Source: a virus
Strand: one strand, 5' to 3'
UHGV virus genome: UHGV-1366603
DNA length: 64,000 bases
Below the pieces are notes generated by a model that saw nothing but the letters and a program-made list of their open reading frames with translations, ran no database searches and was not told where the DNA came from. Position numbers and translations under genes: made by a program. Of the stretch, positions 21,787 to 61,494 are shown in pieces; within the stretch, counting starts at the first letter, position 1, and every line of letters starts with the position of its first letter.

Positions 21787-21796
21787 TTTTCACCTC

Positions 21797-28740: not shown

Positions 28741-28777
28741 TACCTACGGACACACAACTGCCCGCAGGCAGCCTGTC

Positions 28778-32962: not shown

Positions 32963-32972
32963 AAAATTCTCC

Positions 32973-35900
32973 TTAATCGCGAATGATTACCGCCTGCACT
33001 TTATTGTTGGTGTCGATAAACGACATTACGCGCTCCTTGTTAAGATAAGGAGGTATCGGTAACGCAGCGTAATCCGCCAGGTTGTTATTAAACTCGGTTG
33101 CCACTAGCGCATTAAGCGTTTCGGGGTCTGAGCTTGTCCCGGCCAATTCCATGACACGTACACGATTTAACGAGGAGTAGTTGCTAATATAATCCAGCAG
33201 CGTACCGTAGAGTTTGTTCCCGGTTATGCTGTCTGCCGTAGAACGGATATTAGCACGCACTTCGTCCTCATAAAGTCCCCCTAAACCGTAGTAAATAGGG
33301 GTGTACGGATCGTTAACGATAGGTGCAATATTGAACCCGGTTAAACGGTCGCTTAGTGGGATTTTCTGCGTAGTGCCGCCTGCTGCTGTACAGCTTACGT
33401 ATTTATCTACCGCAGACAAGTACACCACGATAGTGTAAACGGTACCTGCTAAGGTCAGCGATGCGTTAAACGTTAAGTCGTTATTCGCACCACGCGTGTG
33501 TGTAAAAGTCACATCGGGTTGTAACGTACTCCACGGTGCAGGTGTAACACGTTTGGTGGGCGTGAAGCCTAACACCACAGATTTCCCGTTACCGAAGTTT
33601 AAACCAAACCCGGCGTAACAATACTCGCCGTTGCTATCAGTTAACCGATAACCACGGGTGACAAGTAACGACAACCGCATAAACTCGCCATCGGTGTTTT
33701 TCCAGCAACCCAGGACGGTTTCTAGCACCGTTCCGGTTTTTGCGTTGCTTTCGGTTTCCCAACTGACTCGCATCCCCGCATTGTTAAATACTGGGAACAA
33801 GTTGTGGATAAACCCGTGAACGTTATCACTTACCCCTTTCGCATCAAACACCCACTTCGACGCAAGCTGGTCGTATTTCACACCATCGAGTGCTTTATAT
33901 CCACCGCCAACCACATAACGCCAATCTGCCTCGCCACGCACAACCGCTTGAAGTCCAGAAGCCCAGCAGGGCGCACCTACTGTTAAATTGCTTAACCCCA
34001 GCACTGCACGCGGAGCAGAACGCTGAATATGTGCGTTGTCATTAGCGACGTGGTCTTTCAATTCACGGAAATCGCCTAACCGTGTCACGTTACGTAGTTC
34101 AGTAACGAACACTTCAGAAAGGTCGTTAATACCGATCAGCCCCACGCGCGTCATGGTATCCGTTTCAGCCTGACTGTAGCTGTCGTGAATAATATACTTC
34201 GCTTTGTTATCGACAATGTCAACAAAAATCCCTGCGTAAATTTCCTTATTCAGATTCGGGAAACGTTCAGTGACGTTAACCGACATCAACGGCACGTCGT
34301 ACGTTTCGCCGCCAATGAAATACGTGGAAGCAGGAAGTGTCACCAGGATTTTGTCTTTAACCGTAACGTCAATTAGGTCGTTACCGGACTTACCAAAGCG
34401 AATAATGTCAACGCGAGCACCCGAGTCAACCCCACCGACGGTATTCTCCAAATCTTCAATCTGGGAAGTCTGCGCCATCACCACACTACCATCGAGTGCT
34501 AAGGTGACATCATCCACATCCAGACCGAACTTAATCAGACCCCGTTTCGTGGTGTCTGCGTTTTCAACACCGAACACAGAAGACGGGTGTTGGTGAACCT
34601 TCGGTGAGTATTTGTCTAACTCAGTCTGTTGTGCAACAGAAATCGGTAAGTCAACGTCCGGGGTATTCGCAACGTTACCTAAACCAAAGGTAATTTTGTC
34701 GATAGTAACCGAACTGGTAAGCTGCATGTCGTTGATGTACGACTTGGCAGCAACCAACTTACCAGTAAACTCTGCGTCCAGTTTTTCAATTAGCGCAGGA
34801 GTCGCCGCGAGGTTTTCAGCCGTACCAAACTCGTCAGTCAACTGCCAACACGCTAACGTAGTAACGTCTTCGGCAACCGGAAGGATAAACGTTGCGACAA
34901 ACGGCGATGCTTTAATCCCGCTACCGGTAAGTTCCACCGTAGACGTCGACGCACCGTAGAACAGACCTGTACCGCCTGCGGTATTACCCGGCAAATACGG
35001 ACCGACCGTAGTGGGGTCTAAGAGCTTCTTACCACGCCACAACAATCCACGGTCATCGGGGTATAGCACAAGCTGGTTACCGCCTGCTTGTAACGTAACA
35101 GGGTTATTACCCACGTTAACATCGGTAGAACCTTGACCGATGAACTTAATGGATTTCGGATCAACGACGAACTGGGCACCTAAACGTTTTTCGTCAACTA
35201 CACCAGGTGCTTTCTTAATGGTAACCGTGTTACCTTTGTTTTGCGAACTAATAGAGACGCCGTCAGCAACATTATTGATCAGCGATTTAAAGTGATGCTG
35301 ATTCTCTAATGCTTCTAACGCAGCGTCCATGTTATCGAAGTTAATCCGGGAGCTATACGTTTTACCGTTTAAGCTAATAACGGCGTCAAACACGTTCCCT
35401 GTACGCTTCAGTTGAAAACGCAGCGTAAAATCCCCATCCGGTATTGCTGGATCAGGAGCTTGAGAAATGTACCGAACTGACGGTACCGGATTCCCGTAAC
35501 CGTGCAACGACAGTTCGATAGTAAGAGTACCACTCCGGACTTCACCGAAAATCTCTACGTACTTACCGGAGTTACTACCGGGATTTTCGTAGAAACGTAA
35601 ACCGGCCCTACCGACTGCCTCATTACCAGACGCTGTTTTACGTCCAGTAACAATAAAGTCAATATCTTGCAGGCTGGCGGGTACCGCGTTAAAAGAAGCA
35701 CTAAATCCATTCTTCGTTCCTGTGTAACGAAGTGCGCCGTGATACGTGCGACCTTGACTAACATAGCTTTCGCTAAAATAAGGATTCACGTATTTAGACA
35801 TCGAAACCGGATCAACTTCTGTCGTGAACGAAGTAAAACCGGATAGCGTTCCAATGGTTCCGTCGGCCGTTTTCGTAGTTGACGTGCGCAGTAGTTTCTT

Positions 35901-37295
35901 TTGCGCAGTCAATGTTGCTTGCGTTGGATACTTAGCATTAACATAATCTGTTAACTGCGGCTTCGTTTTTCCGTAAGCTAACGCTGCATCCGTCGCAATA
36001 CCATTCAACTCTAACGCACGAATCGGGCCCCAAGTGTCAGCGTGTGGGTTATCCTTACGAGTGACGTGTTCGTGTGCAGGGGCGTTGCGATAGAGTTGTT
36101 CTACTAACTGATGGTACTTAACGATTAGCTGATAAACGTCATTACTTACGTCGGCTTCTGGCGCACCAGGTAACGCAAGGAATTGAGCGTAATCGTTTTC
36201 AGCCGCCCACCAGTTTAAGTTAACGTTGGTTTTGTATTTCAGCCACTTCGCAACGTCGGTTTTGCTGTAACCTGCTGAGAATTCGTCTGGCGGTGTGTCA
36301 ACGTTAAACGTATAGTCCATGGACTGTTTGTTAGTCGTTACCTCGATAACGTATACACCATTACCCGGCTGACGAACGACACTAAACGTTAACTCGCCTT
36401 TTAATTCATCGTCGGTCAAACCGTTGATTAACGTATAATCGTAATCGGTCGAACCACTGCCTAACGCAACCGTTAGACGTAGGCCGATTTTACGTTGTTT
36501 TAATTGGAGACGAAGGATACTTGCGCCACCGTTCGCGTAACACAACATCCAATCGATTTGTTCGTTCGGATTAATACTCCCCATATTCGGAAAAATAGCC
36601 GGAATGCGGTATTTCATCGACAGGGAATATTCATTTAACGTGGTGGTTTTGTACGTAACAGAGAAACGACGTTTAGCGGTATTGTAAGTATACCCACCTT
36701 TGTTGTCGTACGTTGCGTACTGTTCAGACGTGATAACCGTGCCATTAGCGCGATGCTCGATATCTAACGTGTTACGTGCAATCGGGTCTACCCGATTCAC
36801 CACGTTACCTAACGAATCACCTAAGCCTGCAATGGCCTGCATTAATTCCAGTTCACCTTTCCAGTTTTCCCAGTCAAACTGAATATCAACCGGTGGAAAG
36901 TAAACGTCTCCGATAACGGTATCCCATTGACACGCAGACGGGTATTTATCTTTATTGAGTTCGCGTTCTGCGGTAATCTGTTCTTGGGTCGCTTCACCAC
37001 AACCTACGGCGTGGTAATCTACCGTGAAATTCGATTTGTATTTGTCGTTAACAATCCAAATCATCCCGTGCACGAGATAGGCTGTGCGCAACATACCGGT
37101 CTCGTACGGGTGTGTAATAACGTAATCGTCGCCTAAGGTCAGTATTTTGCCGCCGCTCTTGACCACCAGGGATGTGGTGAAAAAAGGGGCGTGGGCAGGT
37201 ACCAACATTCGGTACTTCGTACCAATGACGGCGACCGCTTCACCGGTTATTTTATTCCCCGGTTCTTTGAAGTGTGGGTCTAGGACGACAGCCAT
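32973..37295 (-). CDS. Large tail fibre / tailspike-like structural protein (1440 aa); first gene of the operon in this window
   Basis: N-terminal AHAPFFTTSLVVK...GDDYVITHPY module; RBS aggag upstream; divergent from the + gene at 37363. Confidence 0.6.
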   Translation of the reverse strand: MAVVLDPHFKEPGNKITGEAVAVIGTKYRMLVPAHAPFFTTSLVVKSGGKILTLGDDYVITHPYETGMLRTAYLVHGMIWIVNDKYKSNFTVDYHAVGCGEATQEQITAERELNKDKYPSACQWDTVIGDVYFPPVDIQFDWENWKGELELMQAIAGLGDSLGNVVNRVDPIARNTLDIEHRANGTVITSEQYATYDNKGGYTYNTAKRRFSVTYKTTTLNEYSLSMKYRIPAIFPNMGSINPNEQIDWMLCYANGGASILRLQLKQRKIGLRLTVALGSGSTDYDYTLINGLTDDELKGELTFSVVRQPGNGVYVIEVTTNKQSMDYTFNVDTPPDEFSAGYSKTDVAKWLKYKTNVNLNWWAAENDYAQFLALPGAPEADVSNDVYQLIVKYHQLVEQLYRNAPAHEHVTRKDNPHADTWGPIRALELNGIATDAALAYGKTKPQLTDYVNAKYPTQATLTAQKKLLRTSTTKTADGTIGTLSGFTSFTTEVDPVSMSKYVNPYFSESYVSQGRTYHGALRYTGTKNGFSASFNAVPASLQDIDFIVTGRKTASGNEAVGRAGLRFYENPGSNSGKYVEIFGEVRSGTLTIELSLHGYGNPVPSVRYISQAPDPAIPDGDFTLRFQLKRTGNVFDAVISLNGKTYSSRINFDNMDAALEALENQHHFKSLINNVADGVSISSQNKGNTVTIKKAPGVVDEKRLGAQFVVDPKSIKFIGQGSTDVNVGNNPVTLQAGGNQLVLYPDDRGLLWRGKKLLDPTTVGPYLPGNTAGGTGLFYGASTSTVELTGSGIKASPFVATFILPVAEDVTTLACWQLTDEFGTAENLAATPALIEKLDAEFTGKLVAAKSYINDMQLTSSVTIDKITFGLGNVANTPDVDLPISVAQQTELDKYSPKVHQHPSSVFGVENADTTKRGLIKFGLDVDDVTLALDGSVVMAQTSQIEDLENTVGGVDSGARVDIIRFGKSGNDLIDVTVKDKILVTLPASTYFIGGETYDVPLMSVNVTERFPNLNKEIYAGIFVDIVDNKAKYIIHDSYSQAETDTMTRVGLIGINDLSEVFVTELRNVTRLGDFRELKDHVANDNAHIQRSAPRAVLGLSNLTVGAPCWASGLQAVVRGEADWRYVVGGGYKALDGVKYDQLASKWVFDAKGVSDNVHGFIHNLFPVFNNAGMRVSWETESNAKTGTVLETVLGCWKNTDGEFMRLSLLVTRGYRLTDSNGEYCYAGFGLNFGNGKSVVLGFTPTKRVTPAPWSTLQPDVTFTHTRGANNDLTFNASLTLAGTVYTIVVYLSAVDKYVSCTAAGGTTQKIPLSDRLTGFNIAPIVNDPYTPIYYGLGGLYEDEVRANIRSTADSITGNKLYGTLLDYISNYSSLNRVRVMELAGTSSDPETLNALVATEFNNNLADYAALPIPPYLNKERVMSFIDTNNKVQAVIIRD

Positions 37296-43000: not shown

Positions 43001-43774
43001 ATGAAAGTCCATTTAGACGATATCTTTAAAACCGAACCGTATATGATCGAAGGTCCGCTAACGTCCCTACTATTCGCCGATAGACTAGATCGTACGTTGC
43101 AATTACAATCGGTCGAATCTGCACCGATTAACGATGTAGAGCGCTACGAGCGTATCAACCATACGCGGGGTGAGTATCGTCGCTATAAGCCAAACTCACT
43201 AACCATCAAACTTTGGAAAGTAAGCACAGGTAAAGTATTAACTTATCGCGCCGTTGGTAGTTATTACATTCAACAGGCCAAAGAGTGGTTAGAAAAAGTT
43301 AAAGAACTGAACTTCGATCTACTGAGCAAAAAACTGCGCGATCATAACGCCAGTTTGCCGATACGTAATTATTTCGCCACGATTGAAAATAGTCGTTGCT
43401 TCGTTTCCAGCAAGTCTATGATCTTACCCGGGGCTGATGTTCAAACAACACTGAAAGATGTGGTTGTGAAGAAAATCTTTCATGAATCTGAACACGTTGG
43501 ATTTCGTATCTATTTAACGCACAAGAGGCCATTTACCGTGATTCATGTTGTTACCGCACCCGAAGGCTCAGCAGTCGTACGTGAACTTCCTGACGCACGT
43601 GACCGCAGCCCTAATGAGCCGCTTTACTTAATGTCAGGAACAAAATCAGAATCTTTGATGTCCCGTTACAGCATGGTTGATGTTGTTGATACTGCTATGA
43701 AGTTAGGTTGGAAAGAAGTACAGCAGCACGGCAAACAATTGCTGTTTATCGCAGATGTAAATCTCAATAACTAA
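43001..43774 (+). CDS. Hypothetical protein, tandem paralog family member 4
   Basis: C-terminus KLGWKEVQQHGKQLLFIADV. Confidence 0.5.
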   Translation: MKVHLDDIFKTEPYMIEGPLTSLLFADRLDRTLQLQSVESAPINDVERYERINHTRGEYRRYKPNSLTIKLWKVSTGKVLTYRAVGSYYIQQAKEWLEKVKELNFDLLSKKLRDHNASLPIRNYFATIENSRCFVSSKSMILPGADVQTTLKDVVVKKIFHESEHVGFRIYLTHKRPFTVIHVVTAPEGSAVVRELPDARDRSPNEPLYLMSGTKSESLMSRYSMVDVVDTAMKLGWKEVQQHGKQLLFIADVNLNN

Positions 43775-43786
43775 AGAGGTGGTACC

Positions 43787-44365
43787 GTGTACCGATTAAT
43801 AGAAATGAGAAAAGACGTTTGGTTGGAAAACCTCGTCGATGGGGAGCTTGAGGGAATAGAGCTTTCCTTACCAGAGAGAGCGGACACGGTATTGGCCTTT
43901 CTGGTAAAACAGGCAGACCGTGAACCGGTAGGAATCTTCACTGTGGACTATAAAGATCCACGAGGAATTCATTTACGGAACATTTGCAGTGGTTTGGAAA
44001 ACTTACCGGCTAATCCGTTCTTAAACTACGCAAAACGTAAACTCCAAACGGGACAACACCTCTGGGTAACGTTATCGCCTGACGTTAGGATCATACGTGA
44101 CGATTACTCGGCGTTTGTACAGGCAACGAAAGTCAGTCTGTATAACCCGAACGCAGAGCGTACCGATATGCCGTTTATAATTACCTTAGAAGACGATGGA
44201 ACGCAAGAAGGTATTGAGGCAATTACGGAATTAGTAAATTCTTATCCGGTTGCCACTATTGAGTTAGAAAACCCAAACCGATTACCGTTGGGTGACCTGC
44301 TCGAATGGATCGAACTGAATACAGAATTCTTAATCAATTCTCGTCAGTATCGATTCGACGTTTAA
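43787..44365 (+). CDS. Hypothetical protein
   Basis: GTG start with RBS aagaggtgg; 192 aa; followed by terminator. Confidence 0.45.
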   Translation: MYRLIEMRKDVWLENLVDGELEGIELSLPERADTVLAFLVKQADREPVGIFTVDYKDPRGIHLRNICSGLENLPANPFLNYAKRKLQTGQHLWVTLSPDVRIIRDDYSAFVQATKVSLYNPNAERTDMPFIITLEDDGTQEGIEAITELVNSYPVATIELENPNRLPLGDLLEWIELNTEFLINSRQYRFDV

Positions 44366-44369
44366 CAAC

Positions 44370-44400
44370 GGTGGGGTGTAAGCCCCACCTTTTATTTTTT
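44370..44400 (+). terminator. Intrinsic terminator
   Basis: Hairpin ggtgggg-tgtaa-gccccacc followed by a T-run. Confidence 0.7.
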
Positions 44401-44423
44401 GTTCGCTAACATTAAAAATAATC

Positions 44424-44449
44424 TCAGATATATATTACTCAGGTGAGAG
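44424..44449 (+). promoter_or_regulatory. Copy 4 of recurring promoter-like motif
   Basis: TCAGATATATATTACTCAGGTGAGAG followed by an imperfect inverted repeat; precedes the secreted-protein array. Confidence 0.5.
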
Positions 44450-44494
44450 TTAAGATTAACTCTTTTACTTGTTAACCCCACGAGGAGCAAAACA

Positions 44495-44956
44495 ATGAAA
44501 ATCTTCACTTCCTTTTTAATCGCCCTTTTCGCAATCGGATTCAATACTGCACACGCCGCAATCAATAGCTGGGAACAACTACCGAACCCAGGTCAGACTG
44601 TTTACGAAATTGAAGACACCGCCGGAAACGGACTGTCTATCAACTGTGACACTGAAACTGCGAATCGCAAATTTTACGGTCGTATGGTTTGGTATTACGG
44701 GGAACCTGTAGGTGCAACTAACGCTGAAGACAACACGATGGATATCGTCGTAAATGGCAAAACCTACAACATCCCTACGGTGGATGGCAGTGACAAAGCA
44801 GAGCTCGCTTGGGTGGCTTTCGTTAACGCTATCGGTAACGCCAAAACTTTCAGTGTGAACATCAATGGTAACGAAGCTGCTAACTTTACCGTAGAAGGCG
44901 AACGTCTGTCTGAAACTTTCTTCCAGAACTGTGGACACACCCGTCCTAACAAATAA
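44495..44956 (+). CDS. Small secreted protein 1 (signal peptide)
   Basis: MKIFTSFLIALFAIGFNTAHAA; two Cys in mature part. Confidence 0.55.
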   Translation: MKIFTSFLIALFAIGFNTAHAAINSWEQLPNPGQTVYEIEDTAGNGLSINCDTETANRKFYGRMVWYYGEPVGATNAEDNTMDIVVNGKTYNIPTVDGSDKAELAWVAFVNAIGNAKTFSVNINGNEAANFTVEGERLSETFFQNCGHTRPNK

Positions 44957-44978
44957 GTAATAATCTTTTTTAGAGTGC

Positions 44979-45371
44979 GTGAAAATGAATATCAGAACTA
45001 TACTTTATTCAATCATTATTTTCTGTGCAATCGGTATTACTGGCACTTATGCTTTCGGCGATTCGGACGTCCGCCATTACGAACCGGCTCCTGACTCGCC
45101 CATTATCAACCCGGATGAGTCCCCTACGTTAATGCGCAGTTTCGGTAAACTGCAAGTTTATCGCTTAGTACGTGGTGAAACGTGTACCGGATTACTCATT
45201 GCTGACACCCGTGCACAGGTCTACCAACGTCTGACGGATATCGCCTGCGAACAACCAAAAGTCATGTCGGTCAGTATTCATCCGTTAGAGGTCGGTAACT
45301 ATACTGCTGTGGACTTCTTCCATAATGCAGAACTGATTGGTCGTATCACTTTAAATCGTAGCGCTGAATAA
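44979..45371 (+). CDS. Small secreted protein 2 (signal peptide)
   Basis: GTG at 44979 or ATG at 44985; hydrophobic ILYSIIIFCAIGITGTYA N-terminus. Confidence 0.5.
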   Translation: MKMNIRTILYSIIIFCAIGITGTYAFGDSDVRHYEPAPDSPIINPDESPTLMRSFGKLQVYRLVRGETCTGLLIADTRAQVYQRLTDIACEQPKVMSVSIHPLEVGNYTAVDFFHNAELIGRITLNRSAE

Positions 45372-45389
45372 TTTAATGGAGAATTTACA

Positions 45390-45872
45390 ATGAAACGTTT
45401 ACACACCCTGATGCTTTTCGTGGCTATTCTGTTCACAGGCTTTACCTTTAACACAGAAGCGGCTACCGTAAAACAAGCACTTAGCTGTAACCCGGAAGCC
45501 TGGGCTGAACAACCTGGTGCGTGTCCTGACATCAATACGCTCTATACCGACGACGCGACTTATAAAGCCGCAATCGATAAAGCGTTGAAACCTGTCGGAC
45601 TAGACGGGTTATTCGGTAAAGATGGTGTAATGAATGGTCCTGGCGGCGATGTTATTCCCGTGCAAATCAACGGTAAAGTCTGGCTTGAGTCTACCGCTTG
45701 CAAAAGCAATGCTTGTGGTTGGGAATACATCACGACGCTTTATAACCCGCAGACCCATGTCGTGGTAGGTTACTATTACAACGTCGACCCAGGTTACCTG
45801 GTCTGGTTCGGCGATATCGGCGTTAACGAATTCGCCTATCTGGTTAAGAAATACGTAGCTACGGTTAATTAA
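45390..45872 (+). CDS. Small secreted protein 3 (signal peptide)
   Basis: MKRLHTLMLFVAILFTGFTFNTEAA; four Cys in mature part. Confidence 0.55.
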   Translation: MKRLHTLMLFVAILFTGFTFNTEAATVKQALSCNPEAWAEQPGACPDINTLYTDDATYKAAIDKALKPVGLDGLFGKDGVMNGPGGDVIPVQINGKVWLESTACKSNACGWEYITTLYNPQTHVVVGYYYNVDPGYLVWFGDIGVNEFAYLVKKYVATVN

Positions 45873-45887
45873 TTTAAGGAGTCTGTC

Positions 45888-46298
45888 ATGAAAACGTTTA
45901 TCAAAACTTTACTCGTTGCTGTAACTGTTCTGTTCTCTCTTAACGTAGCAGCAAAAACAATAAAGCTACCGGCGGGTATCAAATACGTCAACAGTACCGA
46001 TGAATTCTACTGCACTGAAATTGACGGCCTGTATTGCCAGACAAAGAATTTGTTTGAATACAAAGGTAACAGATATGTTTTCGTTGTTGAGCAAGGTGGT
46101 GCCTGGTGCTACGACAGCCCTATGTCGGTACTCAACCTGGAAACTTGGAAAGCACAGAAAATTGAATACAAAGACAACCAACTGTGTTCAGGCGAAAACA
46201 AACCGTTCTTCAAAATCAAAAATGGTGTGCCGACTGTAGGTATTATCGACACCTCTGGAGCACCCATCGTTGTAGCTCAGGACAAACTTAAAATCTAA
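45888..46298 (+). CDS. Small secreted protein 4 (signal peptide)
   Basis: MKTFIKTLLVAVTVLFSLNVAAK; four Cys. Confidence 0.55.
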   Translation: MKTFIKTLLVAVTVLFSLNVAAKTIKLPAGIKYVNSTDEFYCTEIDGLYCQTKNLFEYKGNRYVFVVEQGGAWCYDSPMSVLNLETWKAQKIEYKDNQLCSGENKPFFKIKNGVPTVGIIDTSGAPIVVAQDKLKI

Positions 46299-46308
46299 GG
46301 AGTAAACC

Positions 46309-46698
46309 ATGCGTCTTATCTGCGCTTTGTTGGCGTTTTTCTCAATCGGAGTTATGGCTTCTACACACATCGACGATTTATTACTTACCCCGGCAACGAA
46401 CACAGACTATCACTACAACCCACCGGGTTTTGAAGTCTGCGAAGGCGATGCAGGCGAATGCCAAGAAGTTGGCGCAGATGGACGCTATATACTCGTAAAA
46501 GCAGACGGCGGGACAACCTGCCCTGCGGGTTATTATTTCGTACTTGACGCTGTAGCAAAAGAGGTACTTCCTGTAACGACCAAAACGTGTGACCCCACAG
46601 TTGTACTAACGCTTGCGAAAAGCAAATCACGTGACCGCCATCTTATCGTCATCGAAGAACGCGGTGAGATGCTAGGCGCTATCGAATTAGATTACTGA
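46309..46698 (+). CDS. Small secreted protein 5 (signal peptide)
   Basis: MRLICALLAFFSIGVMAS; Cys pairs CEGDAGEC and CPAG...C. Confidence 0.55.
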   Translation: MRLICALLAFFSIGVMASTHIDDLLLTPATNTDYHYNPPGFEVCEGDAGECQEVGADGRYILVKADGGTTCPAGYYFVLDAVAKEVLPVTTKTCDPTVVLTLAKSKSRDRHLIVIEERGEMLGAIELDY

Positions 46699-46777: not shown

Positions 46778-47254
46778 ATGCGTTTATCTAATGTTTATCA
46801 AGCGGCCCAATTCCATCACGAACTGACGGCTAAGCCTGAATATATTCGCCACAACTTAACGGTGGCTTGGAAACTGCTATTGATTGCTGACGCAGCACGG
46901 CACAACGACCAGGAAACTATTATCAAAACCGTGCGTACTTTACGCCCTATTGACCTGGAAACAATTTGGTCGTTTGACTTAATTCGAATTTATCATCGTC
47001 GTTTTAATGCGGCGGTGGATGCGATACGTCCTTATTTCCACTATTTGCAAGCAACATCAGACTGTGGTCCATCCTTAGAGTGGGTCTTGGTACAAAGCGT
47101 ATGGAGCGATTACATTTATCTCCTATCTTTAGAGACGGGTGAATGCATTATCGCTAACGAGGTATTCTCAACCAACGCTGAAATGTATCGTTCCCACGCT
47201 ACTATCCAGGGTGTCTCACAGCCTATCTTATCACTCACGCACTTAGGGCTGTGA
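46778..47254 (+). CDS. Hypothetical protein
   Basis: Start trimmed to ATG 46778 (RBS aaaggaga) because the track's 46721 start lies inside the terminator hairpin. Confidence 0.5.
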   Translation: MRLSNVYQAAQFHHELTAKPEYIRHNLTVAWKLLLIADAARHNDQETIIKTVRTLRPIDLETIWSFDLIRIYHRRFNAAVDAIRPYFHYLQATSDCGPSLEWVLVQSVWSDYIYLLSLETGECIIANEVFSTNAEMYRSHATIQGVSQPILSLTHLGL

Positions 47255-47261
47255 TTAGCCC

Positions 47262-47289
47262 GGCCCCGCTGTGTACGGGGCTTCTTTTT
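47262..47289 (+). terminator. Intrinsic terminator
   Basis: Hairpin gccccg-ctgtgta-cggggc followed by T-run. Confidence 0.7.
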
Positions 47290-47308
47290 TGCCCAAGGAA
47301 ACTGAAAC

Positions 47309-47917
47309 ATGAACGAAATTACTTTGGTTCGTTTTATTGAAGCGATGCATCTAAACGAAGCTAATCCGCACTCTCCGTTATTCATCGATTTAATGGAGGA
47401 AGAAGTCGAAGGGTTCTTAGCGTACCCGCGTTTGAAAGACTACTTCGAACGTAAAACACCAACCGCTTACGAAAAGCTGATGTACGCGTTAGATAACCGT
47501 ACTACGCTAAACAATACGCCGTTTAAAGCGCTGGAAGCAATAGACCCTACCGGGGGTGCAGGTATCCCACAACGTGTTGTGTTCTACTACATCGACAACG
47601 GACGTATTAAAGCCGACGTTGTAAACTGGATCTCCGAAGGGGAAATCCCAGAAACGCGTACTTTTAACCTCTGTCCGGTAGAAGAAGGTTGGGTTGCAGG
47701 AACGCATTATTCCTATCCGTATCAAAGCATCAAATCACCTTATCTGTATCCGGTGTATTTAGATGACGTTACGCCAGGGAAATGTATTCCCGTTACCAAT
47801 CTGATTTGTTTACTGACGATGGAAGTTGTTGCGTCGGACGCAGGCCAGGCTTGGGTTGAGCAATCGAAGAATATCCAAAACTGGCAGGAGATGGGTTACA
47901 AACTCTATCAGCCGTAA
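47309..47917 (+). CDS. Hypothetical protein
   Basis: 202-aa ORF with RBS aaggaaa; no phosphoesterase (Mre11/SbcD) motifs seen. Confidence 0.5.
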   Translation: MNEITLVRFIEAMHLNEANPHSPLFIDLMEEEVEGFLAYPRLKDYFERKTPTAYEKLMYALDNRTTLNNTPFKALEAIDPTGGAGIPQRVVFYYIDNGRIKADVVNWISEGEIPETRTFNLCPVEEGWVAGTHYSYPYQSIKSPYLYPVYLDDVTPGKCIPVTNLICLLTMEVVASDAGQAWVEQSKNIQNWQEMGYKLYQP

Positions 47918-47924
47918 TACCACG

Positions 47925-47974
47925 AGAGAACCTTCGGGTTCTCTCCCTTCTCTTTTATTTTTTTTTCTTTTTAC
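47925..47974 (+). terminator. Intrinsic terminator
   Basis: Hairpin gagagaacc-ttcg-ggttctctc followed by a T-run longer than 15 nt. Confidence 0.75.
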
Positions 47975-48002
47975 ACCACGCTCCGTGAATATGGAGGTGG
48001 AC

Positions 48003-50507
48003 ATGTTAAAAGTTGAACGTATTGTACTTAAAGGATTTACCGGAATGGGATTACACGAAATCGAAACCTTCGATTTTACTATCCATTCCCCGACCACCAT
48101 TATCCTCGGTGGTAACGGGTGCGGTAAGACCAGCTTACTGTCCGTGTTTCTACCTATCGCACCTTCGAAATCCGAATTCCGTGACGGGGGTTCTTACACC
48201 AACATCTGTTTGGTTAACGACCATCGTTACAAATTTAAGGTTGCACGTAAAGGCAACTCACTGGTTTGCGATATCGAGAACCTGACGACGGGTACCAAAA
48301 TCGTCGAACAAGGTAATGCGAAAGTGTATAACTCTCGTGTAGAAGAAATCACGGGCATTACAAAAGAGATTAAAGAGTTACTGAACGGAGAAGTGCTTTT
48401 AACGGATGCAGGAACGGAGCTGCGTCGTAAGTGGTTCTACCGTTTAAGTACGTCAGACTTAACTTACGCGTTAGGTTTTTATCAACGTTTACGAAAAAAC
48501 CTGACGATGCTAAACGGTGGTATTGAAATCACCAGCCGTAAAATTGCAGAGTTGCGTACCCGCGTAATTGATAACGAGGAAGAACGTCAGCAGTTAGCAA
48601 CACGGTTAAAAGCATTAGAAGTAGATTTACGTGAACTCAACAAACAGATTGAACAACTGCCTGGTCTGAATCGTGACGTTACGGTGGCAACTATTCAATC
48701 GCTATTGCTTAAAATCGAAGCACCGATTAATGCTATCTTGGAACACCGTGGCGGATTACCTACGGAAGAACAGGTAGAGGAAGCACGACGGATTGAAGCC
48801 ACTGCCCGTGAAGCGGTGGTCTCTGCTGAAACAGAACTATCCATGCTAAACAAAGATTTGTCTTTGTTGATGGACGAGTCCACTCGCCAAGATTACCTGA
48901 TGCGGAATCACGAGGGGTTAAAAAACACGGTTGCGAAACTGCGCGAGTTATTAAAGCAGTGGGACACTGAGCATCTTTTCCCTGAACTGTTTGCGGAGAC
49001 CGTTAACATCGACCAGCTTAAAGCAGCGACGGATGCGCGTGTCTGGGGACAACGTTTAGGAACAACGCTGGATGCTATTAAATCAACGGAACGGTTGAAC
49101 GTACTGGAAGAGAAACTGTTGACCTTAGACCAAAACTCATCTGGGTTGCGTGACCGGTTACAACGCGTTGAAAACGTATTGCAGAACCTCAACCACGAAC
49201 GGAATCACTATTTGGAAACTGCCGAGGTTGATTGTCCGCAGTGTCAATTTAAATTCCGTCCGGGTGTCCGTCGATCGCTGCCTGAATTGGAAGAAGCCAT
49301 TCGTGGTCAGATGGAGCAACGTAATACGTTACAGACTCAACTTGATTCCGTATTGCGAGACCGTACGGAATTAGAGTCAGACGTTAATTACATGCGTCAA
49401 GTACGGGAAATTGTTTTAACATACTCGAAAGACCCGGTATTGAGCTTGTTCTTTAAACGACTCCAGGAGCGGAATGTCTTTACGGATAACCGTAGTCAGT
49501 TTGGTAGTTTGTGCGCAGAGTTTGATCGTGAACTTTATTCTGCAATTGAGTACCACGAAACGAAACACCGTTTCGCTAAAGCGGAAAAAGAGTGGGAAAA
49601 TGCAGTTGCAGCGGTAGGTAACGTTGACGGTGCACTACAGCAGAAAATTGCCTTCCAGCAGGAACGTTTGGGTAAGGCAACAGAAACGCTCTCAGAGCGC
49701 CGTAGAGAGCACGCAGTTGCTAATGATACCTTTTGTTATCTAAACGAACTTAAAGCCACTGTAGACAATTTTAATGCGGTTTTTGAGCGTTTAGAGAACG
49801 ATGTTAAGGTAACATTAACCAACACGGTGGTCGAAACGTTATTAAACGCCCGAGAAAACAAGTTGGATGCGTTCACCACAGCACGGGAACGGTACCGTCA
49901 GATGGAAAACGAACTCAACCAACTTACTGCGTTAGAAAAGGAGTTATCAGATTTACAAGCGCAGCAATTCAATAACAAGCTGATGATTCAAGCGTTCTCA
50001 CCTGAGAAAGGGGTATTACGCAAATACTTCTACAACGCTATCGTGAGAATCACGGAATTGATGACGCGGTATATCGAACAAGTCTGGACCTACCCTATGC
50101 GGGTCATGCCGTGCGACTTAACCGACGGTGACTTAGACTACACGTTCCCAGTGCAGTTGAAAACCCATCCTGAGCCGGTACCTGACGTGCGGAAAGGGTC
50201 GAAAGCGCAGCGAGCCATCTTTAATTTGATGTTTCGTTTAACCGCTTACAAAGCCCTGAAACTTCATCAGTATCCGCTACTGTTGGATGAACCGTCAGAA
50301 GGGATGGATGAGGAACACCGAAATAACCTCGTCGGGTTTATTAAAACCCTGGCGAATTCCGGTGAGTTCTCTCAGTTACTGGTGGTATCTCACGAAGCAG
50401 AAATTCATTCAAAACTTAACGAAGCCGCATACTGTGTTATTGAACCTGAAGGCGTAACACTGCCTGCGGTATACAACGAGGGAGTAAAAATTGTCTACGC
50501 AAACTGA
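48003..50507 (+). CDS. SbcC/Rad50-like SMC-family ATPase
   Basis: Start trimmed to ATG 48003 (RBS ggaggtgg). Walker A GGNGCGKTS; long central coiled coil with CPQC zinc-hook-like motif; C-terminal LLLDEPSEGMDEEH (Walker B) and VVSHE. Confidence 0.7.
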   Translation: MLKVERIVLKGFTGMGLHEIETFDFTIHSPTTIILGGNGCGKTSLLSVFLPIAPSKSEFRDGGSYTNICLVNDHRYKFKVARKGNSLVCDIENLTTGTKIVEQGNAKVYNSRVEEITGITKEIKELLNGEVLLTDAGTELRRKWFYRLSTSDLTYALGFYQRLRKNLTMLNGGIEITSRKIAELRTRVIDNEEERQQLATRLKALEVDLRELNKQIEQLPGLNRDVTVATIQSLLLKIEAPINAILEHRGGLPTEEQVEEARRIEATAREAVVSAETELSMLNKDLSLLMDESTRQDYLMRNHEGLKNTVAKLRELLKQWDTEHLFPELFAETVNIDQLKAATDARVWGQRLGTTLDAIKSTERLNVLEEKLLTLDQNSSGLRDRLQRVENVLQNLNHERNHYLETAEVDCPQCQFKFRPGVRRSLPELEEAIRGQMEQRNTLQTQLDSVLRDRTELESDVNYMRQVREIVLTYSKDPVLSLFFKRLQERNVFTDNRSQFGSLCAEFDRELYSAIEYHETKHRFAKAEKEWENAVAAVGNVDGALQQKIAFQQERLGKATETLSERRREHAVANDTFCYLNELKATVDNFNAVFERLENDVKVTLTNTVVETLLNARENKLDAFTTARERYRQMENELNQLTALEKELSDLQAQQFNNKLMIQAFSPEKGVLRKYFYNAIVRITELMTRYIEQVWTYPMRVMPCDLTDGDLDYTFPVQLKTHPEPVPDVRKGSKAQRAIFNLMFRLTAYKALKLHQYPLLLDEPSEGMDEEHRNNLVGFIKTLANSGEFSQLLVVSHEAEIHSKLNEAAYCVIEPEGVTLPAVYNEGVKIVYAN

Positions 50508-50691
50508 TTGGTGGCGTCAGTTACTAAGCGTTTTAGGGTTTAGCGTCATGGTGCTGGTTGCCATTCTGTACGTGCTATTTTGTATAACGGCGATTTTATG
50601 GGTGGTCTTAGCGTACGCGATTAGACTCGCCTGGGGTTCAATTTGGCACCAACGCGAATGTGAGTGGCGGTGTGTTGGAGGGAAGTCATGA
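50491..50691 (+). CDS. Small membrane protein
   Basis: TTG start with RBS ggag; hydrophobic stretch LLSVLGFSVMVLVAILYVLFCITAILWVVLAYAI. Confidence 0.4.
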   Translation: MSTQTDWWRQLLSVLGFSVMVLVAILYVLFCITAILWVVLAYAIRLAWGSIWHQRECEWRCVGGKS

Positions 50692-50798
50692 TTGAGGGTA
50701 TTCTGTTAACACTTGGGTCGTTGTGGATTATTGGGAAATCCCTCAACTGGCTGATTAATAAGTACGGATGGGCTTTCAAAGGCTCTACGCACAGTTAA
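50688..50798 (+). CDS. Small hydrophobic peptide (36 aa)
   Basis: ATGA overlap with the previous ORF; MIEGILLTLGSLWIIGKSLNWLINKYGWAFKGSTHS. Confidence 0.25.
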   Translation: MIEGILLTLGSLWIIGKSLNWLINKYGWAFKGSTHS

Positions 50799-50848
50799 GT
50801 TAGAACCCCCTCCTGGGTAACTGGGAGGGCGTTTTACGAGGGAAAACC

Positions 50849-50977
50849 ATGACTGTTGTCAATACTACCAATGCTGCAATTGGCGCTTTATACAACGCGG
50901 AACTAACATGGGGTGCGGGTTTTATCACCGTACTGCTTCTCGCCGCAGCCGCTTTTATCATTGGACGTTGGTTTTAA
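50849..50977 (+). CDS. Small hydrophobic peptide (42 aa)
   Basis: RBS gagggaaaacc; MTVVNTTNAAIGALYNAELTWGAGFITVLLLAAAAFIIGRWF. Confidence 0.3.
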   Translation: MTVVNTTNAAIGALYNAELTWGAGFITVLLLAAAAFIIGRWF

Positions 50978-51010
50978 TTTCATCTTTTTTGCGTCTGTAA
51001 GGTCTGATAA

Positions 51011-51454
51011 ATGGAAATTTATTTGTTGAACGCACTTTCTAAAATCGGTGAAGAACAAGCGAAAGATTTACTCGCACTTCATTACCGTTACTTAGATCAT
51101 CAAGCAACGATGCTGAAAATCAAAACCGCTGTACCGAAATTAAACGTGCGTCAACTGATCGAAGGCAACTGTGTTGTTCTGATTTATATCGACGATGTTG
51201 CGGTGGGTTATTGCAGTTACCGCAATCGCAACGGGGTACTCAAAATTCGTTCGTTATACGTGCTGCCTGATTACCGTCAACGCGGGGTAATGAAAGAAAT
51301 CTTCAAAGCGATAGCCGCTGATGAAGCATTCGGTGAAATTGCCATTGGGATGTACACGAAGTGCAAAGAAGCGAAAGAGTATTTCATTCGTCGTGGCTAC
51401 AAAGCAACCTATTCTCACGATAAAGAATGGGTGGATTTCAGCAAAACTTTCTAA
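51011..51454 (+). CDS. Possible GNAT-family acetyltransferase
   Basis: 147 aa; LYVLPDYRQRGVMKEIF loosely fits GNAT motif A; weak. Confidence 0.4.
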   Translation: MEIYLLNALSKIGEEQAKDLLALHYRYLDHQATMLKIKTAVPKLNVRQLIEGNCVVLIYIDDVAVGYCSYRNRNGVLKIRSLYVLPDYRQRGVMKEIFKAIAADEAFGEIAIGMYTKCKEAKEYFIRRGYKATYSHDKEWVDFSKTF

Positions 51455-51520
51455 AACAATAAAGGCTCTCTTGACGTTCCTCACTATGAGTGTGAGATTT
51501 TTACGTCAGGAGAGCTACTT

Positions 51521-51757
51521 ATGTTAAACAGTTTCGGTGTAGGTGGAATGGATACAAGCATTTGCTGGAAAGAATACGAACGCGCAAAAGCATTTCTCCA
51601 GCATCCCAACGTGGGTAAGATCGGTCAGGTGTGTTTTGGTAAACCTGAACTGACGGCCTGTATTCAAGGTGCGTTAGGAACGCTGCCACCTGAATCACCT
51701 TTCGAGCCTAAGGAGAATCCAGATGTTACCAGGAACCCAAACCCCGTATCTATTTAG
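51521..51757 (+). CDS. Hypothetical protein
   Basis: 78-aa ORF. Confidence 0.4.
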   Translation: MLNSFGVGGMDTSICWKEYERAKAFLQHPNVGKIGQVCFGKPELTACIQGALGTLPPESPFEPKENPDVTRNPNPVSI

Positions 51758-52097
51758 TGAACCACTGGATAACAGCGACATCTTACAAATCTGTTATCAG
51801 TGTCACGAAATCGGTGGTAGCGAACTTACGCGGATTAATAAACTACTGTGGCTGATTCCAGAAATCGAATTACCGTTCGTTAAACCGAGTTTGTGGCGTC
51901 GTGGTGCGTGTCGTGAAGCGTATATGCTGTCAAAATTTAACATTAATCTGGAGAAAGTCTGGGAGAAAATGAATGATGCTCAAACCCGAGAACAGATTAC
52001 GCACACGCTGGAATTGCATCTTGCCATGAAACGCCTCGGTCTTGAGCATGAAGGGCTAGAGTCCGTTATCAGTCAATGGGTGAAAAGGAATCGTTAA
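51723..52097 (+). CDS. Hypothetical protein
   Basis: 124-aa ORF overlapping the previous by 35 nt. Confidence 0.4.
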   Translation: MLPGTQTPYLFSEPLDNSDILQICYQCHEIGGSELTRINKLLWLIPEIELPFVKPSLWRRGACREAYMLSKFNINLEKVWEKMNDAQTREQITHTLELHLAMKRLGLEHEGLESVISQWVKRNR

Positions 52098-52170: not shown

Positions 52171-52695
52171 ATGCTTACCTCACTCGGTAAGACCGTTATG
52201 CTAACGATACTTCCAGAATCGGTTATTGACAACGACCTGTTTAACGCCCCTGAGCGCTTCAAGGTCGTTACGATAAATTGCGTAGGGGCAATGGGTCGGG
52301 GTATCGCTTTAGCGTGCAGAGAACGCTATCCTGGGCTTTATCAGGACTACCGGGAACGTTGCTTCGCTAACGAAATACGAATAGGGAATGTGTACGTTTA
52401 TCCCGAGGAAAACTGCATTCTCTTACCAACCAAAACACATTGGAAACTAAAATCCCAGGTTTCTTATGTTATCGCGGGTATCACCGCGTTGGCAGATGCC
52501 GCAGAAAACTTAGAGGGTGGGGTGGCTTTACCGCCGTTAGGGATGGCTAACGGTTGGTTGACAAAAGCTGAACGTCAACAAATCTTTTTGTTTATCGAAA
52601 AGAAACTCGTACCGAGGAGACAACATTACCGTTTCTATTTACCCGATACGCTTTATCAAGAAGCAAAACCTTTAATTCCAAACCTTTTTAAATAG
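52171..52695 (+). CDS. Hypothetical protein, possible macro-domain-like (ADP-ribose binding/processing) fold
   Basis: VVTINCVGAMGRGIALACRERYPGLY resembles the N-x-V/G-x-M-G-x-G-I-A stretch of some macro-domain families; recognition from memory only. Confidence 0.35.
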   Translation: MLTSLGKTVMLTILPESVIDNDLFNAPERFKVVTINCVGAMGRGIALACRERYPGLYQDYRERCFANEIRIGNVYVYPEENCILLPTKTHWKLKSQVSYVIAGITALADAAENLEGGVALPPLGMANGWLTKAERQQIFLFIEKKLVPRRQHYRFYLPDTLYQEAKPLIPNLFK

Positions 52696-59245: not shown

Positions 59246-59980
59246 ATGACATACCCGAAAACGATTCAACCTACCTTACCGACGCTGGTAATCGGTGCTG
59301 ACGCAGAAACCAAATCACTGCGTCCTGATGCGTATCTGTTAACCACAGGCTTAGTTGCCTTTGACGTACCGACTTTAAAAATGGTAGGGTCGTCGTATAT
59401 GCGTATTGATCCTAACGACCCTAAAGCAAAAGCTGTGTTCCACGAAGACCCGCAAACCGTGGGGTGGTGGGAAGGTAAAGGAGAACCTGAATACGCACCG
59501 TCTCGCGAAGCCTATACGGAAGCATGGGGCGGTACTACACCTATGCCGGAAGCGCTGTGGGCGATGCGTAAGTGGTTAGACGAAATCACCGGTAAACACA
59601 ATTTTGTTATCACCATGCGTGGCCCGGATTTCGATTCTCCGATTTTCATGAACGCGTTCGCACAATGTGACGTCCCTCCAGGTAAGTTCCGTAAATTCAG
59701 CGCGTTAGACAGCGACCGCACCGCAGAACGTTTAGCGTTGGCGTTTGGTTTTGAACCTGACTTGACCGTTGAGCAAGTTTACTGGACGCGTGGCAAACCT
59801 GCATTTGAACACCATGCTTTGTGGGACGCTGCGAAAGAAGCGTACACCACCGCACGTATTTATCACCTTGCACTGATTACCCGCGAGTATGGGTACGAAC
59901 GTGCTAAAGCCTGTCACGAAGAACTGAAAACCGGTGAATATATTCCACCACAGATTCGTGATCAGTTAACCAGGGATTAA
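59246..59980 (+). CDS. DEDDh-type (DnaQ-like) 3'-5' exonuclease
   Basis: Exo I-like GADAET (D-x-E) near N-terminus and Exo III-like HHALWDAAKEA (H-x4-D) near C-terminus. Confidence 0.55.
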   Translation: MTYPKTIQPTLPTLVIGADAETKSLRPDAYLLTTGLVAFDVPTLKMVGSSYMRIDPNDPKAKAVFHEDPQTVGWWEGKGEPEYAPSREAYTEAWGGTTPMPEALWAMRKWLDEITGKHNFVITMRGPDFDSPIFMNAFAQCDVPPGKFRKFSALDSDRTAERLALAFGFEPDLTVEQVYWTRGKPAFEHHALWDAAKEAYTTARIYHLALITREYGYERAKACHEELKTGEYIPPQIRDQLTRD

Positions 59981-59982
59981 GA

Positions 59983-61494
59983 ATGAAGAACGTTGATGTT
60001 GCTGTACTTTATACCGACGGTAGCCATTTAACCTCACCGATGGGAACAGGCGGTGGGATTCACGGTTACCTGTTTAATAAGGAAGAAATTGTTGACGGTG
60101 GCGTTTATCGCCACCCTACCATTCCCGAAGGGATTACAACCTCCGGCTATCGCCAGATTAACAAAGAGGAAAAACTTCCTGCGTTACCAGACTCTGTTGA
60201 GTTCGTGGACTGTGTTATTCCGGTACCGAAACACCACCACTCTGACGTTGCAGAGATTGTTGCTTTTTTAACCGTTTTCGAAAAAGCACCGTTCGTTGCA
60301 AAGAACTACATTATCTATATCGATGCGTCTTACGTTGTGAATACGTTTAACGATTGGATTGACGGTTGGGCTAAGCGGGACTGGCGACGGGCTGATGGAA
60401 CCCCTATCGCGAACCTTGAGCTGGTTCAACGGATGTGGGAAATTAAGAAACGTCTGAAGCGTGAAGGAAAAGGGATTCGTGTTCTTAAAATCAAAGGACA
60501 CTCTGGTCACTACGGTAACGAACGGGCTGACGGGCTGGCACGAAAAGGATCGTCCATCTCTGCACACGGAGAAGGCTTAGATTATCAGGCGTACTGGTCA
60601 GCAGACGAAATCCCGGAAGAACAGCAGGAAGAAATCGTCAGTGAAGGCGTTAACGTTGCCGCGTTTCCTGATATTTGCGTAACTAAGTTCTGTTACCCGA
60701 TGGTAAATGAGCAGCACCCTACAGTTAAAGTAAACGGTGAAAATCTCTATTACATGTTCGGGGGTAACCACGCAAAACAGAAGGACGATATTGTCTTCGT
60801 CGGAAAATACATTCCTGATGCGCAGTTTTGTGTGATGTTTACACGTGAGCCGTGGACAAACGTTTACGATTTGGTTAACACCCACGCTGCTAAAGCCTGG
60901 GAAGGTGTGCCGCGTTTGCGTCAGTTTGACCCTATCGCAGTTGTTTTTAACCTGTTCGTAAAACGTAAGAAGTTTGCGGAAGCAGCGGCTAACGGTATTC
61001 CGGTTGACAAAATGCACTTTAGCGAAGACAAAAACCTGTGGATGTACGAAGACTTGTCCATCAGTCGTATTCTGCGTCCTGCGTTATTGTCTTACCGTTG
61101 CATTTCCATTCGTGATGAACTGGCAGTGTGGCTGCGTGACTGTTTGGAAGGCAAATCAAACGTTGTCTTAAATGACATTACCGATTTGCTTTATGACGAA
61201 AAAGGTAAACCCACCAAAGACTTTTACCGAAACGTGGATAAAGGGTTTGACGTCTCCATTAAAATCCCTAACGGGAAGGTTGCCGTTAAAACTATTTTGA
61301 CGCGTGCTATCGACTTACCGACGCGTACGGAAATCAACCGTATCAAAGAACCGAATGGACGATTCTACGTCGCTGTACGTCGTCCAGAACGTCAGTACGT
61401 TGAATACGCGTTAGTGTATATCGGTGAGAAGTATCACGGTCTGTGGTGTGGTTATTATTCAAACAAACGAATATTGACCGATAAGGAACTTTGA
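59983..61494 (+). CDS. RNase H-like (RNase HI-type) domain protein with C-terminal extension
   Basis: LYTDGS, IYIDASY and KIKGHSGHYGNERADGLARKG fit the catalytic Asp/Glu/Asp/His pattern of RNase HI-type domains. Confidence 0.6.
   Translation: MKNVDVAVLYTDGSHLTSPMGTGGGIHGYLFNKEEIVDGGVYRHPTIPEGITTSGYRQINKEEKLPALPDSVEFVDCVIPVPKHHHSDVAEIVAFLTVFEKAPFVAKNYIIYIDASYVVNTFNDWIDGWAKRDWRRADGTPIANLELVQRMWEIKKRLKREGKGIRVLKIKGHSGHYGNERADGLARKGSSISAHGEGLDYQAYWSADEIPEEQQEEIVSEGVNVAAFPDICVTKFCYPMVNEQHPTVKVNGENLYYMFGGNHAKQKDDIVFVGKYIPDAQFCVMFTREPWTNVYDLVNTHAAKAWEGVPRLRQFDPIAVVFNLFVKRKKFAEAAANGIPVDKMHFSEDKNLWMYEDLSISRILRPALLSYRCISIRDELAVWLRDCLEGKSNVVLNDITDLLYDEKGKPTKDFYRNVDKGFDVSIKIPNGKVAVKTILTRAIDLPTRTEINRIKEPNGRFYVAVRRPERQYVEYALVYIGEKYHGLWCGYYSNKRILTDKEL

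What the first reader, a model, noticed from the sequence alone, without database searches (positions are those of the whole stretch)
48003..50507. SbcC/Rad50-like ATPase with no adjacent SbcD/Mre11 nuclease
The protein has Walker A and B motifs, a long coiled coil and a CPQC hook-like motif, but neither neighbouring gene shows calcineurin-type phosphoesterase motifs. In most phages the Rad50-like and Mre11-like genes are adjacent, so the partner is either elsewhere or this is a different SMC-type function.
Basis: partly seen in the sequence, partly recalled or inferred. Interest (0 to 1): 0.4.

Follow-up and report, generated by a model that had tools for sequence, protein, structure and literature searches.

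The report
Jumbo-phage SbcC/Rad50 gene; partner encoded elsewhere
This gene encodes the Rad50/SbcC-type ATPase of a phiKZ-like (nucleus-forming) jumbo phage, and its missing Mre11/SbcD nuclease partner lies about 87 kb away in near-identical genomes, a split already described for this phage family, so the finding is real but ordinary.

Summary
Window 48003-50507 (+) encodes an 834-aa ABC-type ATPase with Walker A, Walker B/D-loop and H-loop motifs. It has two roughly 250-residue helical arms and an invariant C-P-x-C hook at the midpoint. No SbcD/Mre11-like nuclease is adjacent or anywhere else in the 64-kb window.

It is the orthologue of Erwinia phage Asesino gp207 (69% identity), Salmonella phage SPN3US gp186 (58%) and phiKZ gp165. 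SPN3US gp186 is an essential gene. Thomas et al. 2016 already reported that SbcC and SbcD are "drastically separated" in these genomes.

The window matches a 223-kb human-gut metagenome contig exactly over the 22.5 kb compared. In genomes 96-97% identical to it, an SbcD gene with all phosphoesterase metal-binding motifs lies about 86-87 kb downstream on the same strand. Among 50,697 phage records, 290 hold an SbcC homologue and 290 hold an SbcD homologue.

Verdict: a split-gene SbcCD (Mre11-Rad50) end-processing and recombination complex. It is already known and of low interest.

The parts
47924..47945 (+). Terminator-like hairpin (GAGAGAACC-TTCG-GGTTCTCTC) followed by a T-rich run. It separates the upstream gene from the SbcC gene.
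   Evidence: Pattern scan; sequence read. This is a consensus match only; function was not tested.
47993..47997 (+). Shine-Dalgarno GGAGG, 5 nt upstream of ATG 48003.
   Evidence: Sequence read. All homologues begin at the equivalent Met.
48003..50507 (+). SbcC/Rad50-like ABC ATPase gene, 834 aa. Orthologue of Asesino gp207, SPN3US gp186 and phiKZ gp165.
48108..48131 (+). Walker A / P-loop GGNGCGKT (aa 36-43).
   Evidence: G36, N38, G41 and K42 are invariant.
48414..49217 (+). Ascending helical (coiled-coil) arm, aa 138-405.
   Evidence: AlphaFold2 secondary structure.
49233..49244 (+). CPQC, the putative zinc hook at the apex (aa 411-414).
   Evidence: C411, P412 and C414 are invariant in 19 homologues. 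The motif sits between the two helical arms in the model.
49278..49997 (+). Descending helical arm, aa 426-665.
   Evidence: AlphaFold2 secondary structure.
50199..50210 (+). Degenerate ABC signature motif S-K-A-Q (aa 733-736).
   Evidence: S733 is invariant. The family pattern is S-x-(A/G)-Q in 17 of 19 sequences.
50277..50309 (+). Walker B and D-loop, LLLDEPSEGMD (aa 759-769).
   Evidence: L761, D762, E763 and D769 are invariant.
50388..50393 (+). H-loop Ser-His (aa 796-797).
   Evidence: H797 is invariant.
50491..50691 (+). A 66-aa hydrophobic (transmembrane-like) peptide with a TTG start. It overlaps the SbcC stop by 17 nt and is equivalent to Asesino gp208 and SPN3US gp187.
   Evidence: phrog_16515 at 3e-6. 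Maximum Kyte-Doolittle 19-residue score 2.93, and the ORF is conserved at the same overlapping position in relatives. Discussed in PMC5105663. A link to SbcC function is inferred only.

Best explanation
The gene encodes the Rad50/SbcC-type ATPase subunit of a phage Mre11-Rad50 (SbcCD) complex in a phiKZ-like, nucleus-forming jumbo phage related to Erskinevirus and Seoulvirus.

The inferred mechanism follows the solved Rad50/SbcC complexes. The two ABC half-domains (aa 1-137 and 673-834) fold into one head. Two heads dimerise around ATP. The roughly 250-residue antiparallel coiled coil ends in a Cys-Pro-x-Cys hook that pairs with a second hook through a zinc ion. The head and coiled-coil base bind a dimer of the SbcD/Mre11 nuclease. 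That nuclease is encoded about 87 kb downstream on the same strand, not next door.

The complex would use ATP to clamp and process DNA ends and hairpins. This would feed recombination-dependent replication and repair of the phage genome, as T4 gp46/gp47 do.

What is shown here:
- The sequence motifs and the predicted fold.
- Orthology to SPN3US gp186.
- An intact SbcD gene elsewhere in near-identical genomes.
- Co-occurrence of the two genes across the family.

What is taken from the literature: essentiality in SPN3US.

What is inferred: physical SbcC-SbcD association, zinc binding, nuclease activity and the role in recombination.
For: Family assignment:
- phrog_77 'SbcC-like subunit of palindrome specific endonuclease' at 5e-91 over the full length.
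- Profile of 19 homologues against PDB sequences: the five best hits are P. furiosus Rad50 (3e-9 to 3e-8). The first non-Rad50 hit is at 1e-4.
- Foldseek top hit is C. thermophilum Rad50 in the MRN complex, 2.4e-18.

Anatomy:
- C-P-x-C is invariant at the midpoint, with no globular hinge.

Orthology:
- 69% identity to Asesino gp207 and 58% to SPN3US gp186, with a conserved neighbourhood.

The partner:
- SbcD (phrog_100, 2e-63) sits 86-87 kb downstream on the same strand in relatives 96-97% identical at the nucleotide level. One of these is the closed circular record NZ_CP134650.1.
- The SbcD family conserves D22/H24, G57/D58, G97-T-P-S-H-D102, H180 and H212/H214.
- 290 phage records hold an SbcC homologue and 290 hold an SbcD homologue, with nearly the same genus breakdown.

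Literature:
- SPN3US gp186 is essential, gp27 is the SbcD subunit, and the two genes are 'drastically separated' in SPN3US, phiKZ and related phages (PMC5105663).
- SbcCD is practically universal in jumbo phages (PMC7824862).
- phiKZ gp165, 'SbcC-like nuclease', is listed among core-genome genes and shows a knock-down phenotype (PMC12571901).
Against: - No curated model reaches its cut-off. Pfam SMC_N scores 35.1 bits against a cut-off of 40, and no NCBIfam family reaches its threshold. The protein is a divergent phage clade rather than a close SbcC orthologue.
- The ABC signature is degenerate (S-K-A-Q instead of S-G-G-Q/E).
- The SbcD gene of the window's own contig (ENA ERZ918879 k127_150560) was not retrieved. 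Its presence is inferred from genomes 96-97% identical.
- No direct evidence exists for an SbcC-SbcD interaction, zinc binding or nuclease activity in any phiKZ-like phage.
Confidence: 0.9

Rival explanations
1. It is a stand-alone SMC-like ATPase that works without SbcD. It might condense, tether or segregate the replicating genome inside the phage nucleus, with SbcD acting separately.
For: The two genes are about 87 kb apart and not co-transcribed. The fold is shared with SMC, MukB and JetC. The coiled coil is about 300 residues longer than in T4 gp46 (PMC5105663).
Confidence: 0.05
2. It is a Lamassu LmuB-like or other defence or counter-defence SMC-family ATPase carried by the phage.
Against: The score is far below phrog_77 (307.6 bits). 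No LmuA or LmuC-like neighbour is present. The gene is essential in SPN3US and belongs to the core genome of the family, unlike accessory defence genes. LmuB is itself a Rad50 relative, so a weak cross-hit is expected.
Confidence: 0.02
3. It is a RecN- or RecF-type recombination mediator rather than Rad50/SbcC.
For: The NCBIfam RecF model hits the P-loop region only (2.7e-6, 26.8 bits against a cut-off of 172).
Confidence: 0.01

Closest known systems
Salmonella phage SPN3US gp186 (SbcC subunit), with Erwinia phage Asesino gp207 and Pseudomonas phage phiKZ gp165
   Same: Full-length orthologues, 58% and 69% identity for SPN3US and Asesino. They share the same length (834-836 aa) and the same neighbourhood, including the overlapping small hydrophobic ORF downstream. 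SbcD is encoded about 90-95 kb away. SPN3US gp186 is essential (PMC5105663).
   Different: The window's phage is a distinct species-level lineage. It has no megablast match in the 50,697-record phage collection. It is present in a human-gut metagenome and as 'plasmids' of Enterobacter and E. coli isolates. Its genome is about 222-225 kb, against 240-246 kb for the named phages.
T4 gp46/gp47 and E. coli SbcC/SbcD (bacterial and phage Mre11-Rad50)
   Different: The two genes are not adjacent or co-transcribed here. Sequence similarity is too low for BLASTP (PMC5105663) or for the curated SbcC models. At 834 aa the protein lies between T4 gp46 (63.6 kDa, against 95.7 kDa for SPN3US gp186) and E. 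coli SbcC (1,048 aa) (PMC5105663). The signature motif is S-K-A-Q.
Archaeal and eukaryotic Rad50
   Different: Sequence identity is only 12-20%. The coiled coil is much shorter than in eukaryotic Rad50. No Nbs1 or Xrs2-type third subunit is known.

Membership tests
Rad50/SbcC ATPases (Mre11-Rad50 / SbcCD complex) | Bipartite ABC ATPase head: N-terminal Walker A, and C-terminal signature, Walker B, D-loop and H-loop. | tested here: met
   GGNGCGKT at 36-43, LLLDEPSEGMD at 759-769, SH at 796-797. The signature is degenerate (S-K-A-Q, 733-736) with an invariant Ser.
Rad50/SbcC ATPases (Mre11-Rad50 / SbcCD complex) | Long antiparallel coiled coil inserted between the two head halves. | tested here: met
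   AlphaFold2 model, pLDDT 83.9, with helices at 138-405 and 426-665.
Rad50/SbcC ATPases (Mre11-Rad50 / SbcCD complex) | CxxC zinc hook at the coiled-coil apex, instead of an SMC hinge. | tested here: met
   C411-P-Q-C414 lies at 49% of the length. C-P-x-C is invariant in 19 homologues down to 18% identity, and only about 20 residues lie between the arms. Zinc binding itself cannot be tested with these tools.
Rad50/SbcC ATPases (Mre11-Rad50 / SbcCD complex) | Head fold closer to Rad50/SbcC than to other SMC-like ATPases. | tested here: met
Rad50/SbcC ATPases (Mre11-Rad50 / SbcCD complex) | A cognate Mre11/SbcD phosphoesterase encoded in the same genome. | tested here: inconclusive
   It is absent from the 64-kb window. 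It is present, with all metal-binding motifs, in genomes 96-97% identical and in all relatives examined. The remainder of the window's own contig could not be read.
Rad50/SbcC ATPases (Mre11-Rad50 / SbcCD complex) | Score above the curated family thresholds (Pfam SMC_N, NCBIfam SbcC). | tested here: not met
   Pfam SMC_N scores 35.1 bits against a gathering score of 40. No NCBIfam model reaches its cut-off. The PHROG phage family phrog_77 does match strongly. The failure reflects divergence, not a conflicting family.
Rad50/SbcC ATPases (Mre11-Rad50 / SbcCD complex) | Physical complex with Mre11/SbcD and ATP-dependent nuclease activity. | not testable with these tools
   This needs biochemistry or multimer modelling.
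SMC / MukB / JetC (hinge-containing SMC proteins) | Globular hinge dimerisation domain at the coiled-coil apex. | tested here: not met
   Only residues 406-425 separate the two arms, and they carry the CPQC motif.
RecF / RecN | RecF: a head with no long coiled coil. RecN: a shorter coiled coil without a CxxC hook. Either should be the closest fold. | tested here: not met
Lamassu LmuB | Encoded with LmuA (effector) and LmuC partners; an accessory defence gene. | tested here: not met
   There is only a weak LmuB model hit, 59.6 bits. The neighbours have no PADLOC hits. The gene is core and essential in the family.

The most novel reading that the evidence does not exclude
The most novel reading the evidence leaves open is that the conserved separation from SbcD has functional meaning. 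It goes together with a small hydrophobic peptide that is conserved and overlaps the SbcC stop codon (50491-50691). The ATPase might be expressed, localised or tethered differently from the nuclease. For example, it could be anchored at a membrane or at the early infection vesicle or nuclear shell, and act partly on its own as a DNA-end tether before SbcD joins. Thomas et al. 2016 raised the membrane-anchor idea by analogy with T4 gp47.1. Nothing here tests it.
Probability: 0.08. Interest if true: 0.4.

Novelty: already known. Interest (0 to 1): 0.1.

Why it matters
It matters little beyond correct annotation. RefSeq labels both this gene and its SbcD partner 'hypothetical protein' in the 'plasmid' copies of this phage, so they can now be named.

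The case is also a reminder that gene adjacency is not a reliable criterion for Mre11-Rad50 pairs in phiKZ-like jumbo phages. Functionally linked genes are routinely dispersed in those genomes.

If the SbcC-SbcD interaction or the role of the coupled membrane peptide were studied, SPN3US amber mutants would be the natural system.

Tried and rejected
- Megablast of 47000-52000 against the phage collection found no match. The phage is not in that collection at 85% identity or more. Protein-level searches were needed.
- I tried to reach the SbcD gene on the window's own contig (ENA ERZ918879 k127_150560). I looked up four SbcD sequence variants (P0001, P0133, P0121, P0131). They returned many other contigs of about 220 kb, but not that one. 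The claim therefore rests on relatives 96-97% identical.
- Pfam, NCBIfam and PADLOC on the neighbouring genes gave nothing relevant to nucleases.
- I considered the DEDD-type exonuclease (59246-59980) and the RNase H-domain protein (59983-61494), about 9 kb downstream, as alternative partners. I rejected them. They are unrelated folds, core genes in their own right, and a bona fide SbcD exists elsewhere.
- I considered a Lamassu-like defence role and rejected it.
- The large representative-protein search was not run. The family assignment was already clear.

Full report
**The observation.** The window has an ORF at 47826-50507 (+). The real start is ATG 48003. It is preceded by GGAGG at 47993-47997, and every one of 18 aligned homologues starts at the equivalent Met. 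The product is 834 aa.

- Walker A GGNGCGKT, aa 36-43.
- Walker B plus D-loop LLLDEPSEGMD, aa 759-769.
- H-loop SH, aa 796-797.
- CPQC, aa 411-414.

In an alignment of 19 homologues reaching down to 18% identity, C411, P412 and C414 are invariant. So are the catalytic P-loop, Walker B, D-loop and H-loop residues. The ABC signature is degenerate (S-K-A-Q), but its Ser is invariant.

An AlphaFold2 model (mean pLDDT 83.9) has five parts: an N-terminal head lobe (1-137), helices 138-405, a 20-residue apex carrying CPQC, helices 426-665, and a C-terminal head lobe (673-834). There is no additional domain.

The downstream ORF (50491-50691) is a 66-aa hydrophobic peptide that overlaps the SbcC stop codon by 17 nt.

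A profile HMM built from 119 SbcD homologues found nothing in any of the 624 stop-to-stop segments of the window (best E 0.75). tblastn with SPN3US SbcD found nothing either. The observation 'SbcC-like ATPase, no adjacent nuclease' is therefore confirmed, and it extends to the whole 64 kb.

**What the protein is.**
- PHROGs places it in phrog_77, 'SbcC-like subunit of palindrome specific endonuclease', at 5e-91 over the full length.
- A profile of the 19 homologues searched against PDB sequences puts P. furiosus Rad50 first (3e-9). Other Rad50 entries follow. The best non-Rad50 hit is at 1e-4.
- Foldseek ranks C. thermophilum Rad50 in the MRN complex first (2.4e-18), followed by Smc5/6, condensin, MukB, JetC and Lamassu LmuB.

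The curated bacterial models do not reach their thresholds. Pfam SMC_N scores 35.1 against 40, and nothing passes in NCBIfam. This is a divergent phage clade.

**Which phage.** No nucleotide-level match exists in the phage collection. At the protein level the best matches are Erwinia phages Asesino, phiEaH2 and Stratton (68-69% identity). SPN3US-like Seoulvirus phages follow at about 58%. In all, 290 phiKZ-like jumbo phages of Pseudomonas, Erwinia, Salmonella, Vibrio and other hosts match.

The gene neighbourhood is conserved in Asesino and in the SPN3US-like phage SPLA3. In both, no SbcD gene is adjacent.

The window is 100% identical, over the 22.5 kb compared, to a 223,427-bp contig from a human-gut metagenome (ENA ERZ918879).

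**Where the partner is.** SPN3US encodes an SbcD-like protein at 21020-22168, about 147 kb from its SbcC on the linear map, or about 90 kb downstream if the map is circularised.

Using it as a probe, an SbcD homologue appears on the same IMG/VR contig that carries an SbcC gene 96% identical at the DNA level to the window. On UViG_3300045988_078609, SbcC is at 130793-133294 and SbcD at 43658-44803. Both are on the same strand, 86 kb apart.

A closed circular record, NZ_CP134650.1, is deposited as a plasmid of Enterobacter ludwigii. It is 222,441 bp and 97% identical to the window. It has SbcC at 16946-19450 and SbcD at 106244-107389, both on the + strand, 86.8 kb apart.

This SbcD matches phrog_100, 'SbcD-like subunit', at 2e-63. 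Its family conserves the calcineurin-type metal ligands: D22-x-H24, G57-D58, G97-T-P-S-H-D102, H180 and H212-x-H214. It looks catalytically competent.

In Asesino, phiEaH2, pEa_SNUABM_29 and SPAsTU the same arrangement holds, with SbcD about 93-95 kb downstream on the same strand. Across the phage collection, 290 records hold an SbcC homologue and 290 hold an SbcD homologue, with nearly identical genus counts.

I could not read the rest of the window's own contig. Look-ups of four SbcD variants returned other contigs. For this exact genome, the presence of SbcD is a strong inference rather than an observation.

**What is already published.**
- Thomas et al. 2016 (PMC5105663) showed by amber mutagenesis that SPN3US gp186, the SbcC subunit and phiKZ ORF165 homologue, is essential. 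They identified gp27 as the SbcD subunit. [quoted passage not shown] They also pointed out the small transmembrane protein encoded just downstream (gp187).
- Iyer et al. [quoted passage not shown]
- An antisense-oligomer screen lists phiKZ gp165, 'SbcC-like nuclease', among core-genome genes with a knock-down phenotype (PMC12571901).

The finding therefore rediscovers a known feature of this family.

**Mechanism.** By homology with the solved Rad50/SbcC complexes, the most likely mechanism is an SbcCD (Mre11-Rad50) machine. It would have ATP-driven head dimerisation, zinc-hook pairing of the coiled coils, and an SbcD nuclease dimer bound to the head. It would process DNA ends and hairpins for recombination-dependent replication and repair. 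I put this at about 0.9.

The motifs, fold, orthology and the distant partner gene are shown here. Essentiality comes from the literature. Complex formation, zinc binding and activity are inferred.

Three rivals are each unlikely, for the reasons given in their entries: an SbcD-independent SMC-like role, a Lamassu-like defence ATPase (PADLOC LmuB at 59.6 bits), and RecN or RecF.

**Verdict.** The interpretation 'partner elsewhere' is supported. The feature is already known and interest is low.

Noticed in passing
whole window; related records NZ_CP134650.1 and NZ_CP173450.1: The window's phage is a Chimalliviridae-type jumbo phage. It matches a 223-kb human-gut metagenome contig exactly over the 22.5 kb compared. 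Copies 97% identical are deposited as closed circular 'plasmids' of Enterobacter ludwigii (gull cloaca) and E. coli 98232 (human). Its protein clusters hold hundreds of members from Salmonella, E. coli and Shigella isolate assemblies, on contigs of about 220-228 kb. This fits the 'persistent virulent Seoul-like jumbo phages in isolates' described in bioRxiv 10.1101/2024.12.31.630880. In the RefSeq copies both SbcC and SbcD are labelled 'hypothetical protein'.
   Followed up: partly
window 50491-50977 (+): Three small hydrophobic ORFs lie directly after SbcC: 66 aa (TTG start, overlapping the SbcC stop by 17 nt, phrog_16515, conserved in relatives), 36 aa (50688-50798) and 42 aa (50849-50977). 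The metagenome gene caller missed the first one.
   Followed up: partly
window 44495-46698 (+): A run of five small genes (129-160 aa), each with an N-terminal hydrophobic, signal-peptide-like segment. One carries a precomputed Pfam YfjT hit. They look like secreted or periplasmic proteins of unknown role.
   Followed up: no
window 22260-37295 (-): Four consecutive paralogous virion structural genes, three of them giant (1,727, 1,394 and 1,440 aa; phrog_7449, phrog_8078, phrog_7557, all cross-matching phrog_2163). This is probably the SPN3US gp168 baseplate/fibre paralogue family (PMC5105663).
   Followed up: no
window 59246-61494 (+): A DEDD-type exonuclease (phrog_255, Pfam Rv2179c-like) sits immediately before an RNase H-domain protein of 503 aa (phrog_3265), about 9 kb downstream of SbcC. 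These are nucleases near SbcC, but of unrelated folds.
   Followed up: partly
window 17772-19094 (-), 51011-51454 (+), 52171-52695 (+): Auxiliary genes: a radical SAM protein (phrog_1802), a GNAT acetyltransferase, and a Macro-domain / Appr-1-p-processing-like protein.
   Followed up: no
window 47924-47975 (+): A strong terminator-like hairpin and a long T-rich tract lie between the upstream gene and SbcC. This suggests that SbcC starts its own transcription unit.
   Followed up: no
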